This document shows, in pieces, positions 8,337 through 12,200 of a stretch of 64,000 nucleotides of DNA; the stretch's first letter is position 1; every line of letters starts with the position of its first letter. A program made the translations under genes and the position numbers. The DNA is from Zootoca vivipara. Taxonomy: Eukaryota. The stretch covers positions 72,850,001 to 72,914,000 of the forward strand of contig NC_083278.1 in NCBI RefSeq assembly GCF_963506605.1. Direction: 5' to 3'. The notes beneath the pieces are model-generated. The model searched no databases. It was not told where the DNA came from and saw nothing but the letters and a program-made list of their open reading frames with translations.

Positions 8337-8543
8337 AGTAAAATAAAAAAATTCCTTCAGTAGCACCTTAAAGACCAACTAAGTTTTTATTTTGGTATGA
8401 GCTTTCGTGTGCATGCACACTTCTTCAGATGCACACGAAAGCTCATACCAAAATAAAAACTTAGTTGGTCTTTAAGGTGCTACTGAAGGAATTTTTTTTA
8501 TTTTACTTCGACCCAGACCAACACGGCTACCTACCTGTAACCA
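8337..8543. mobile_element. Penelope-like element, pLTR-only foldback insertion, with minimal hammerhead motif
   Basis: ~80-bp inverted arms (8335-8414 / 8429-8509), nearly identical to the termini of the GIY-YIG-containing copy at 9793-10451. Perfect 12-bp TSD GCACTTTTTTGA (8325-8336, 8544-8555). Confidence 0.88.
8395..8432 (-). ncRNA. Second minimal hammerhead motif (stem I has one mismatch)
   Basis: GCAU-CUGAAGA-A-GUGUGCAUGCACAC-GAAA-GC-UC^AUAC. The core is identical to 9845-9882, but the 5' strand of stem I is altered by the inversion junction. Confidence 0.7.
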
Positions 8544-9218
8544 GCACTTTTTTGAGTTTTACTCTGTGCCTTTCTACCATGCTTGAGGAAAAAGTTAAGG
8601 TTCTACACTAATGTTCCAGTCAACAGGGATGACTGCTGTTATGCACTATTAGGTATAAAGGTAGGGCAGAATGTCAAGTAAAAGAATGATCTGGAAATAG
8701 CTGGCCTTTGACAGCTAACTCTAGTAAAAGTGAAACGAAACTGAAACTAATTTTTCATATGTTTGACAGAAAATTGTATTAAGAGTGCAGAGTAGAATTT
8801 TATAAAATCACATTTGATTATTAATTGCAGCACACTAATCGGGTTCTATGCAGGATGGCATAGTGCCTCTCAAGTAGGCTTAAGTGTAATATATTTAAAA
8901 ACACTGCTGTTGTGCTTGGGAATAAAAATAGAAAAAGTGAAGGAGAACAGCAGCCATTAGAACCCTGAAGAAGTCACTAATGAAACATGCACCATTTTCA
9001 CCTAAACCTCTGCAATCCTAAAAGAACCTCAGTCCTTGCAAACTTCTGTGCTTTGATGCTTTATGATCTGAGTGATAAGCAGGTATTTCATTGAATAAGT
9101 AAGGTGTGCATTTTCTACTGTATCAGCTTTTGGAATGTGTAATGAGTGTCAGTTTCCCACAGGTTTCTAATTCAAAAATCATGTTTTAAGAAATGCGCTT
9201 CCTTTTCTTTTTGAGGTC

Positions 9219-12200
9219 ATGAAACGTGTACGCACAGAACAGATTCAGATGGCAGTTTCCTGCTACCTCAAACGCAGGCAGTATGTAGACTCAGAAGGTC
9301 CTCTGAAACAAGGGCTTCGCTTATGCCAGACTGCGGAAGAAATGGCAGCTAATCTAACAGGTACCTACTAAAGTTTCTTAATGAGTTTATTGCAGGTGTC
9401 GCCAACATGTGCCCTCCAGATATTATTGGATTACAAACCTATCATCCTTAAAATTTGTCCTTGCTGGAGGGGCTGTAGTTCAGCAACATTGGTAAGACAC
9501 GCTGTTGGCTACTTCTGGTTTATAGTAAAGTGCAAATCTCTAGTTACTAAAGAGTGAAACTTCTAAGCAATCAATTGGGGACAGTCTGAAGCATGAATGG
9601 CTTCATGATCCTGTAACACCCAGTTGTGTCCAAAGGCTGGGAAGCAAATAAATAAGCAAGCAAGAAGGTAATCTGGCAATTTACCAAATAAGACAAATAA
9701 AAATGAAAAGTGCAGCAGGAATGCTGCCATTTCCAAATATTTTGAAATGATTTGGCTGCCAAATATTTTTGGGAAGTGTTTTTAACGGACAATTTAAAAA
9801 ATTCCTTCAGTAGCACCTTAAAGACCAACTAAGTTTTTATTTTGGTATGAGCTTTCGTGTGCATGCACACTTCTTCAGATACACTTGAAACAGAAGTCAG
9901 TCCCTTATGTATATACAGAGGGTGGGGGTGGGGGGGTGGGAATGGGTGATGGGCTGATGGGAGTGGTAAACCTGTAGATGGCTGTTAACGACTGATGACT
10001 GCAATTGGTCCTGCGGGGGAAAAGCAAGGGCTGAGGCGCTAAAGAAAGCTTGATCATGCATAATGAGATAAGAATCCAATGTCTTTGTTCATCCCAGATG
10101 GCTCCATGGTTTTAAGCTTGGTAATGAGTTCCAATTCAGCAACTTCTCTTTCCAGTATGTTCCTGAAATTTTTCTGTAATAAAACAGCTGCTTTGAGATC
10201 TTGTATAGAATGTCCTGGGAGATTGAAGTGTTCTCCTACTGGTTTCTCTGTCTTGTGGTTCCTGATGTCAGATTTATGTCCATTTATCCTTTGGCGTAGG
10301 GTTTGGCCTGTTTGTCCAATATAGAGAGCTGAAGGACACTGTTGGCATTTGATGGCATACAAAATAAAAACTTAGTTGGTCTTTAAGGTGCTACTGAAGG
10401 AATTTTTTTATTTTGCTTCGACTCAGACCAACACGGCTGCCTACCTGTAACTTTAACAGACAAATTATGTTTAAATAAGTAAATTTGGGGTTTTTAAGGA
10501 GAACAGCCTTTTCACTGAGATGAAGCTAAATGATTTAGACCAGGCATCCCCAAACTGCAGCCCTCCAGATGTTTTGGCCTACAACTCCCATGATCCCTAG
10601 CTAATAGTACCAGTGGTCAGGGAAAATGGGAATTGTAGTCCAAAACACCTGGAGGGCTGAAGTTTGGGGATGCCTGATTTAGACCTTCTCTAGCTCATCT
10701 CTGCCAAGACGAGAACTATTACTGCTAAATAATTCAACTTTTATATATAGAACTCTACAGCCCTGACACTTTTTTGTGGTTCTAGATGTTTTACAATAAG
10801 CATCAGAGCAATGTGTTATTTTTATCAGTTTTTTTCCGACTAATTGAAAGCCCAGTTAAAGTTAAAGTTAAATCAATTCAGAGGAGACCCGCAGAGACAT
10901 AACTGAACTGTTTAGAAGTTATATTTAATACAAACAGTCATGTGTAACTTTAGAGGTACCTAATACTTCAAAGCACAATTGCCCACACAGAATGTAGCAT
11001 TAAAGTGCTAAGGCTGCAATTCTATAACCATGTTCCATAGAACTCAATGGTGCCTACTTCTGAGTAGACAAGCATACGATTGCACTGTTGGTCTGGTAAT
11101 TCAGGTTTCTGACATTCTGTAGAAGTAGGTTCTCATACTGCTTTGCTGTCTCTTCGCTGGACTTACGAGTGAACAAAGTCTGAAATAAAGTGTTTTTTTG
11201 AAGTGATGTCAGGTGATACAAAATCTCTGTGGCATTGGTTTGTGATTTCAGCTACAGGTAATGAATTCACTCCTGTCATGGAAGTAGAATGGCAACATAT
11301 TCACTTGTACAGTGGTACCTCGACTTACGAATGCCTCGACTTCCGAAGGTTTCGACTTACGAAGTCTGCAAACCCGGAAGTATTTTCGCTCCGCACGCCC
11401 TCTGCGCATGTGCAAAGCACAAAATTGCGCTTTGCGCATGCGCAAAATGGACTTACAAAGGATTCGACTTTCAAAGAGCACTACGGAACGGATCACCTTC
11501 GTAAGTCGGGGTACCACTGTACAGGTATCCCCATTTCCAGTGTGTGATTTTAAAGGGAAGATATTTGTCTAGAAATGCCTTTGTCACAAGCGTATATTAT
11601 TTGAGCACCTGTAGCCCTATTGCTTGTGGTATCAAGATGAACAAGTGGTTCATCTCCATCATTCACTGACAGAGGAATAATACATAACATAATAAAAGCC
11701 TGCTGGATAAAATCAGTAACCCATCTAGTCCAGCATTCTGTTCTCACACTGGTCAACAAGATGTCTATGGGAGGGAGGGAGGGAGGGAGGGAGGGAGGGA
11801 GGAGGCAAGCAGGACTAGACTGCTTCAGTGATTTCACAAATCTTGTCTTGAATGTAAAAGTTAATATATGTGCATCAAGTGTAGGATTACTTTTGGTCAT
11901 TTAGCACAAACATTTTGTTTGCTCTAATGATGTTGGTGATTTGGCACTTTTTAAAAACTCTGTCAAAACACTCCAAATATCTGTTTCAATGTGAGAATGG
12001 TGTGTTGTGTTGCAGCTTCCAGTGCTTTATAGAAACTATTTTTAAAACCTTTGTTTGTTCCCTTAGTTCAGTCTGAATCAGGTAGTGCCAACATTATCTC
12101 TGCTGCACCCTGCCTAGCAGAACCACAACAATATGAAGTACAGTTTGGGCGATTACGCAACTTTCTTACAGGTGAGTTTCATAAACATATGTGCCATATC

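What the first reader, a model, noticed from the sequence alone, without database searches (positions are those of the whole stretch)
9845..9882. Intact minimal hammerhead ribozyme inside TAF5L intron 2 (antisense strand)
Seen: the minus strand reads GUAU CUGAAGA A GUGUG-CAUG-CACAC GAAA GC UC^AUAC, with every hammerhead core nucleotide, stems I and II, and only a palindromic AGCU where stem III should be. Established: Penelope-like retroelement pLTRs carry such minimal type I hammerheads, thought to work as dimers. Inference: this copy may still be catalytically competent. The motif class is known; its state at this locus is untested.
Basis: partly seen in the sequence, partly recalled or inferred. 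Interest (0 to 1): 0.7.

Follow-up and report, generated by a model that had tools for sequence, protein, structure and literature searches.

The report
Ordinary Penelope hammerhead; copies begin there
This self-cutting RNA motif is real but is one of over 13,000 identical copies spread by a Penelope-type jumping gene, lies on the strand opposite the host gene and is likely inert here; about a quarter of the copies that keep the motif's first 22 letters begin exactly at its first letter, often with an extra G, which likely marks the capped start of an uncut RNA.

Summary
The 38-mer has every hammerhead core base, a 4-bp stem I, a 5-bp stem II and palindromic AGCU. It lies in the 3' pseudo-LTR of a 5'-truncated Neptune-type Penelope-like element (9797-10451, minus strand) in a TAF5L intron. 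The genome holds 13,219 identical copies, and the motif class was described in 2014. This copy is likely inert: it is antisense to TAF5L, has no usable dimer partner, its stem I is predicted to be sequestered by the element's inverted tail, no RNA reads cover the unique flank (shallow test), and a related species likely lacks the insertion. Inserted copies decay neutrally (core 10/275, rest 25/675), although the 38-mer is invariant between subfamilies. Family-level result: 4,390 of 16,948 copies have a non-native base directly before stem I, 2,909 of them G; about 0.6% of tail copies begin at the cut site. A TATA-like box lies about 30 nt upstream. The likely template is a capped, uncleaved RNA that starts with the ribozyme. 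The scan noted both readings before, in other genomes.

The parts
9845..9882 (-). Minimal type I hammerhead motif; predicted cut 9849^9848; first base 9882 is the inferred transcription start of the family
   Evidence: sequence; genome-wide junction counts
9797..10451 (-). 5'-truncated Neptune-type Penelope-like element (inverted tail, endonuclease remnant, 3' UTR/pLTR, hammerhead, short tail)
   Evidence: BLAST to 20 own-genome loci; full-length relative L016 with RT and GIY-YIG
10054..10359 (-). [quoted passage not shown]
   Evidence: Pfam GIY-YIG 24.3 bits, cutoff 22.6
9883..10053 (-). 3' UTR / upstream part of the pLTR; 56-83% identical between subfamilies over 150 nt
9904..9915 (-). TATA-like box (TATATA at -33, TACATAAG at -29 from 9882); a similar word lies at the same distance in all subfamilies seen
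   Evidence: sequence; promoter function inferred
9797..9844 (-). Tail downstream of the cut site, ending at the nearer of two family end points (55-64 nt after the cut)
   Evidence: 43 of 106 tails end at 55-64 nt, 50 of 106 at 90-104 nt
10356..10451 (+). Inverted copy of the long tail at the element's 5' end; predicted to pair with the tail and the 3' strand of stem I
9781..9796 (+). Likely target-site duplication, left copy (14 of 16 identical to 10452-10467)
10452..10467 (+). Likely target-site duplication, right copy
8346..8541 (.). Second, fold-back pLTR insertion in the preceding intron; its hammerhead (8395-8432, minus) has a mismatch in stem I and is predicted to be locked in the hairpin
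9216..9360 (+). First coding exon of TAF5L (host gene, opposite strand)
   Evidence: sequence; gene identity from downstream exons

Best explanation
The motif is the standard minimal hammerhead of a young, high-copy Neptune-type Penelope-like retrotransposon, carried as a passenger into a TAF5L intron on the opposite strand, where it likely never cuts anything. In the active element the ribozyme likely forms the first 38 nt of a capped RNA started about 30 nt downstream of a TATA-like box in the pLTR. The element's reverse transcriptase likely starts at one of two sites about 55-60 and 95-100 nt past the cut site and copies uncleaved RNA. It either runs off the capped end, leaving copies that begin at stem I with an extra G, or, from a downstream pLTR, reads through the ribozyme into the ORF, as in this copy. 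Cutting would need a second copy (AGCU pairing) and probably the element's protein. SHOWN: motif, element anatomy, copy number, junction counts, G excess, two tail end points, neutral decay of copies, invariance between subfamilies. PREDICTED: sequestration of stem I. INFERRED: promoter, cap, RT start sites, inertness at this locus.
For: 13,219 exact copies, reversed-pattern control 0. Full-length relative L016 has a 901-aa ORF with RVT_1 and GIY-YIG and a CxxxxCxxC linker. All min-HHR hallmarks of PMC4209133 are present. The motif is antisense to TAF5L. In folds of the whole element, stem I has pairing probability 0.0 because the inverted tail pairs with the tail; the second hammerhead at 8395-8432 has stem II probability 0.0. 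No RNA reads on 9400-9777 in two runs and no begin/end pile-up at the cut, while 4,739 and 2,266 family reads were laid. A 4,142-nt contig of organism B aligns over 9409-9796 and then goes on for 1,016 letters that do not lie on the element. 25 of 30 copies chosen by upstream sequence (5 with indels or truncation dropped): core 10/275 versus other 25/675 changes, p=1. G12>A is the most frequent listed substitution within the motif in DNA contigs, about 14% of depth. Between subfamilies the 38-mer is 38/38, against 116/167 upstream and 39/46 downstream for the unbiased comparison. Junctions: 4,390 of 16,948 copies have non-T before stem I, 93 of the first 100 rows being joins to unrelated DNA (counted by eye), and 2,909 of the 4,390 have G. 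Of 12 joins with a single base after an identifiable donor, 10 are G. About 124 of 19,885 tails begin at the cut site. In PMC11167929 the Anolis Poseidon element starts RT internally at two sites, uses unprocessed RNA, and its hammerhead cuts only with protein.
Against: Cleavage was not tested; the sequence is intact and this copy keeps its TATA-like box, so it could be transcribed in an unsampled tissue. The RNA test is shallow: about 6% of each of two runs was read, tissue unknown, and TAF5L's own intronic reads were also absent. Joins at the cut site are about twice those at the two neighbouring positions (about 124 versus 69 and 62), about 1.4-fold after a rough microhomology correction, so a small in vivo cleavage footprint is not excluded. 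The 5' edge is not perfectly sharp: 1,832 copies lack the native G and mostly begin one base later. In one search the -1 G could be read from a donor in 15 of 64 cases and had no identifiable donor in 39. An extra G could come from terminal transferase activity, not a cap. Folding is context-dependent (stem I 0.0-0.7 across windows). Absence in organism B rests on one contig whose onward letters I did not see.
Confidence: 0.85

Rival explanations
1. This copy is a working ribozyme at the locus: its own promoter drives an antisense RNA into TAF5L that is cut at 9849/9848, in trans with any of thousands of family transcripts or in cis with the copy at 8395-8432.
For: Intact sequence and TATA-like box; family RNA is abundant; a second UC^AUAC site lies 1.45 kb downstream on the same strand.
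Against: No reads on the unique flank and no end pile-up; the partner is hairpin-locked with a stem I mismatch; min-HHRs cut poorly even as dimers (PMC4209133); the insertion is likely lineage-specific.
Confidence: 0.07
2. The 38-mer is conserved in the active lineage mainly as a promoter or protein-binding element at the RNA start, and cutting is incidental or lost.
For: The whole 38-mer is invariant, including loop II and N7, not only the core; it overlaps the inferred start site; templates are overwhelmingly uncut; hammerhead mutants did not affect insertion in vitro (PMC11167929).
Against: Older families in the same genome keep core, inserted A, G10.1-C11.1 and AGCU with different stem II sequences (about a dozen of the first 100 rows, decayed); the one lineage-level variant seen is the tolerated C17U.
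Confidence: 0.2
3. The pile-up of 5' joins at stem I is a reverse-transcriptase stall or a microhomology artefact at a structured RNA, not an RNA 5' end.
For: Joins are also frequent inside the motif (23 of 30 tail-anchored copies begin at positions 5-44, after a one-base offset correction); many joins are fold-backs with templated bases.
Against: Join density falls sharply upstream of the first base (4-5 of 100 rows over -4 to -12); G is 66% of non-T bases against about 29% expected from composition; clear untemplated G next to target-site duplications in 6 loci; TATA-like box at the right distance.
Confidence: 0.2

Closest known systems
Minimal type I hammerheads (min-HHR) in pLTRs of metazoan Penelope-like elements (Cervera and De la Pena 2014, PMC4209133; abstract, results and discussion read)
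   Same: Full core, 4-bp helix I, unpaired base between 9 and 10.1, G10.1-C11.1, palindromic 15.2-16.2 with no helix III, location in the pLTR, thousands of dispersed single copies; reported there for Neptune elements and reptiles.
   Different: Helix II is 5 bp plus a 4-nt loop inside a perfect 14-nt palindrome (7-8 bp in their Schistosoma families); sequence variability is very low here, as in their Drosophila virilis case of a recent invasion.
Neptune/Nematis-type EN+ Penelope-like elements (described in PMC8557442; passages read)
   Same: RT plus C-terminal GIY-YIG, CX2-5CxxC linker, partial tandems forming pLTRs, inverted 5'-truncated copy, optional tail of about 40 bp at one end.
   Different: No phylogeny run, so Neptune versus Nematis was not resolved.
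Poseidon element of Anolis carolinensis (PAc; Frangieh et al. 2024, PMC11167929; main text read)
   Same: Two internal RT start sites that bound the tail; uncut RNA as template; no RNA-seq ends at the cut site.
   Different: In PAc the ORF starts within stem II; here the ATG lies 104 nt after the cut site. A pile-up of 5' ends at stem I with an extra G is not described in the text read.
Non-LTR retrozymes (bioRxiv 10.64898/2026.07.22.740005; abstract and first part of results read)
   Same: Hammerhead-bearing, PLE-derived, dispersed monomers.
   Different: This copy is a truncated piece of the autonomous element with an ORF remnant, not a tandem non-coding unit.

Membership tests
min-HHR of metazoan PLEs (PMC4209133) | Conserved core CUGANGA, GAAA, UH | tested here: met
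min-HHR of metazoan PLEs (PMC4209133) | Short helix I (4-5 bp), G10.1-C11.1, unpaired base between 9 and 10.1 | tested here: met
min-HHR of metazoan PLEs (PMC4209133) | No helix III; palindromic 15.2-16.2 | tested here: met
   AGCU at 9853-9850
min-HHR of metazoan PLEs (PMC4209133) | Helix II longer than the canonical 4 bp | tested here: met
   5 bp plus CAUG loop, pair probability 0.98 in isolation; shorter than the 7-8 bp of the Schistosoma families
min-HHR of metazoan PLEs (PMC4209133) | Located in the pLTR of a PLE | tested here: met
min-HHR of metazoan PLEs (PMC4209133) | Self-cleavage as a dimer | not testable with these tools
   needs an in vitro assay; no end pile-up in RNA reads
Neptune/Nematis-type EN+ PLE (PMC8557442) | Single ORF with RT and C-terminal GIY-YIG | tested here: met
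   L016, 901 aa; the window copy keeps only the last 101 codons
Neptune/Nematis-type EN+ PLE (PMC8557442) | CX2-5CxxC linker between RT and endonuclease | tested here: met
   visible in P0001 just before the GIY-YIG domain
Neptune/Nematis-type EN+ PLE (PMC8557442) | Partial tandems, inverted 5' copy, optional tail | tested here: met
Neptune clade specifically | RT phylogeny with reference Neptune elements | not tested
Rfam hammerhead families | Covariance-model hit | tested here: not met
   no hammerhead family at E<=10
Domesticated intronic hammerheads of amniotes (HH9/HH10; recalled, from no call) | Single-copy, conserved at the orthologous site, full three-helix fold | tested here: not met
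   13,219 copies; likely absent in organism B; no helix III
Non-LTR retrozyme | Tandem non-coding units each with a hammerhead | tested here: not met
   single copy with ORF remnant

The most novel reading that the evidence does not exclude
The hammerhead is the first 38 nt of the element's capped RNA, so cleavage removes the cap with a 34-nt leader. Because cutting needs two RNAs, it works as a concentration-dependent self-decapping brake that takes transcripts out of both translation and retrotransposition. The genome records this: thousands of copies from capped, uncut RNA and very few from cut RNA.
Probability: 0.2. Interest if true: 0.65.

Novelty: already known. Interest (0 to 1): 0.25.

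Why it matters
The flagged copy does not matter: it is an ordinary transposon passenger. The family pattern does. Why Penelope-like elements keep a poorly cutting hammerhead is stated to be open in PMC8557442. Placing the likely capped RNA start at the first base of stem I gives a concrete test: CAGE on the family, and core mutants read out by capped RNA level, translation and insertion rate.

Tried and rejected
Rfam scans found no hammerhead. I considered a 3' splice site at the start of stem I, as in D. virilis Penelope: rejected, because a major subfamily has no AG there and the sequence upstream of the joins is heterogeneous. A cis dimer with the copy at 8395-8432 was rejected on predicted folding. 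The lowest-energy cofold of two 38-mers is a 14-bp duplex through the stem II palindrome (-30.6 kcal/mol), not the AGCU dimer; the active dimer is pseudoknotted and could not be scored, and my hand-built half-dimer in that call was mis-paired, so I do not use its energy. No RNA holder was listed for the stretch. Library strandedness was not calibrated on a TAF5L exon, so the direction of family reads is not interpreted. The empty-site letters in organism B were not seen. The exon translation printed is out of frame and is not used; one search gives exon 3 in frame. The bacterial promoter scan is irrelevant. Lunse et al. 2016 is not held and is known only through PMC6765202 (passages). PMC2377424: abstract and one section read; it describes a TATA-less internal promoter for D. 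virilis Penelope. Searches for the 5'-end/extra-G pattern in print found nothing relevant (three narrow searches only). Supplements of the papers were not read and may list this family's motif.

Full report
Observation. Numbering: stem I 9882-9879 with 9848-9845; C3-A9 9878-9872; an inserted A at 9871; G10.1 9870 and C11.1 9857; G12 9856; A15.1 9853; U16.1 9850; C17 9849. A relaxed descriptor finds this one hit in the window and none in 60 simulated windows. Rfam has no hammerhead hit at E<=10. The host gene is TAF5L on the + strand, so the motif is not in its pre-mRNA.

Element. The motif lies in a 655-bp insertion, 9797-10451, flanked by a likely 16-bp target-site duplication with 2 differences. 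On the minus strand it has an inverted tail (10356-10451), the last 101 codons of a GIY-YIG domain, a 3' UTR, the hammerhead and a short tail. Among 20 own-genome stretches chosen around exact matches, L016 holds a 901-aa ORF with RVT_1 and GIY-YIG and a CxxxxCxxC linker, which PMC8557442 gives as the mark of Neptune and Nematis elements (passages). That the host is a lizard is my inference from the repeats and genome size, not a tool result. The ATG is 104 nt past the cut site. The exact 38-mer occurs 13,219 times in 1.44 Gb, with 0 for the reversed control.

Known class. PMC4209133 (abstract, results, discussion) defines these minimal hammerheads, lists the same hallmarks, reports them in Neptune elements and reptiles, and finds no monomer activity and low dimer activity. 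PMC11167929 (main text) shows for an Anolis Poseidon element that the hammerhead cuts only with the element's protein, that mutants do not affect insertion in vitro, and that RT starts internally at two sites.

Conservation. Thirty copies were picked by an upstream 28-mer of an older subfamily (1,005 matches), so without regard to the motif. Five with indels or truncation were dropped. In the other 25, core positions changed 10/275 and others 25/675 (p=1; without the CpG 9/250 versus 24/650); 7 of 30 were exact. In DNA contigs of two organisms G12>A, a CpG change at a catalytic base, is about 14% of depth. Changes at stem II position 10.2 are mostly uncompensated (197 matches, first 100 seen). 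Inserted copies therefore decay neutrally. Between subfamily majorities the motif is 38/38, while 150 nt upstream are 56-83% and the tail 78-100% identical (only the older subfamily was sampled without bias). Selection acts on the replicating lineage, not on copies such as this one.

This locus. Folding the whole insertion puts the tail and the 3' strand of stem I into a long duplex with the inverted tail (stem I probability 0.0). The only nearby second hammerhead (8395-8432, same strand) has a stem I mismatch and lies in a fold-back hairpin. A transcript starting at 9882 also gives stem I 0.0-0.3 for lengths of 60-400 nt. Two RNA runs (about 6% of each read) gave 4,739 and 2,266 family reads, none on the unique flank 9400-9777, and no begin or end pile-up at the cut; TAF5L intronic reads were absent too, so the test is shallow. 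One contig of organism B aligns over 9409-9796 with 25 differences and continues for 1,016 letters off the element, so the insertion is likely absent there.

Where copies begin. Of 16,948 copies with the first 22 nt intact, 4,390 have a base other than the native T before stem I. By eye, 93 of the first 100 rows are joins to unrelated DNA and 7 continue the subfamily sequence. 2,909 of the 4,390 have G, against about 29% expected from composition. One base later the count is 1,832, about 88-90 of the first 100 rows being joins. In the first 100 rows, 14 joins are at the first base, 11 at -1 to -3 and 4-5 at -4 to -12. I examined 90 such sites in 87 loci (of rows 31-100, 7 were left out, 4 of them continuations). 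A single extra base after an identifiable donor was seen in 12, of which 10 G; the -1 base was in the donor in 21 (15 G); no donor of 8 nt or more was found in 57. At the cut site, 310 of 19,885 tails have a non-C base and 40 of the first 100 rows are joins, about 124 or 0.6%; the two neighbouring positions give about 69 and 62 (53 of 100 rows each). The excess is about 1.4-fold after a rough correction, weak but not nil. The anchors differ (all subfamilies for the 5' edge, young tails for the cut site), so the 40-fold contrast is approximate. Among 30 tail-anchored older copies, 4 begin at the first base, 3 upstream, 23 further inside and none at the cut (offset corrected by one). Tails end at 55-64 nt (43 of 106) or 90-104 nt (50 of 106) after the cut, matching two RT start sites. 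A TATA-like word lies about 30 nt upstream in every subfamily seen. That an extra 5' G marks reverse transcription of the cap is recalled from LINE-1 work; one search retrieved no source for it.

Reading. The active element likely makes a capped RNA that begins with the ribozyme and is copied uncut. This copy came from a template read through its 3' hammerhead, and it is likely inert. Three narrow searches found no paper on the 5'-end pattern. I had reached this reading before consulting earlier notes; unreviewed notes of this scan report the same in other genomes, and one reports cut-site footprints, which are weak here. No note exists near this place.

Verdict. Real motif, known class, ordinary copy. 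Interest 0.25, carried by the family-level 5'-end pattern.

Noticed in passing
window 9797-9885 (family reads): Family RNA shows an excess of A>G and T>C places (18 of 32 in X21, 24 of 47 in X22; 2 of 14 in DNA run X9), including the 3' strand of stem I at 9846 and 9847 (11-12% in X21, 2-6% in X22, about 1% in DNA). Likely ADAR editing of fold-back copies; no DNA of the same individuals.
   Followed up: partly
L003:3436-5742 (G000:C1:2777400-2779750): Four head-to-tail 598-bp units, each with an intact hammerhead: a natural cis-dimer substrate resembling a retrozyme array.
   Followed up: no
L001 and L016: Tandem near-full-length copies with hammerheads 3,000 bp apart (L001) and an intact 901-aa ORF (L016): the family is young.
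   Followed up: partly
window 9857-9870: Stem II with its loop is a perfect 14-nt palindrome; two RNAs are predicted to prefer a 14-bp duplex there, which would compete with the AGCU dimer.
   Followed up: partly
family, C17 (window 9849): C17U is about half of the first 100 rows and marks a sub-lineage with its own tail (4 of 25 copies): a change the ribozyme tolerates.
   Followed up: partly
L021, L030, L049: Decayed hammerheads of other, older families: same core, inserted A and AGCU, different 16-nt stem II.
   Followed up: partly
L001, first 100 nt from stem I: Predicted alternative pairing of the first 11 nt, including CUGA, with the tail about 60 nt downstream, which would switch the ribozyme off.
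   Followed up: no
window 8429-8497 (+) and 9796-9864: Inverted tail copies flank the first coding exon of TAF5L and could pair in the pre-mRNA; effect on splicing untested.
   Followed up: no
window 10541-10685 and 11309-11522: Two short elements with terminal inverted repeats, likely non-autonomous DNA transposons (seen; the first gives weak miRNA-model hits).
   Followed up: no
first 100 rows: About a dozen tails are preceded by a shared CACTAG or GCTAG word in place of the hammerhead: perhaps a hammerhead-less derivative family.
   Followed up: no
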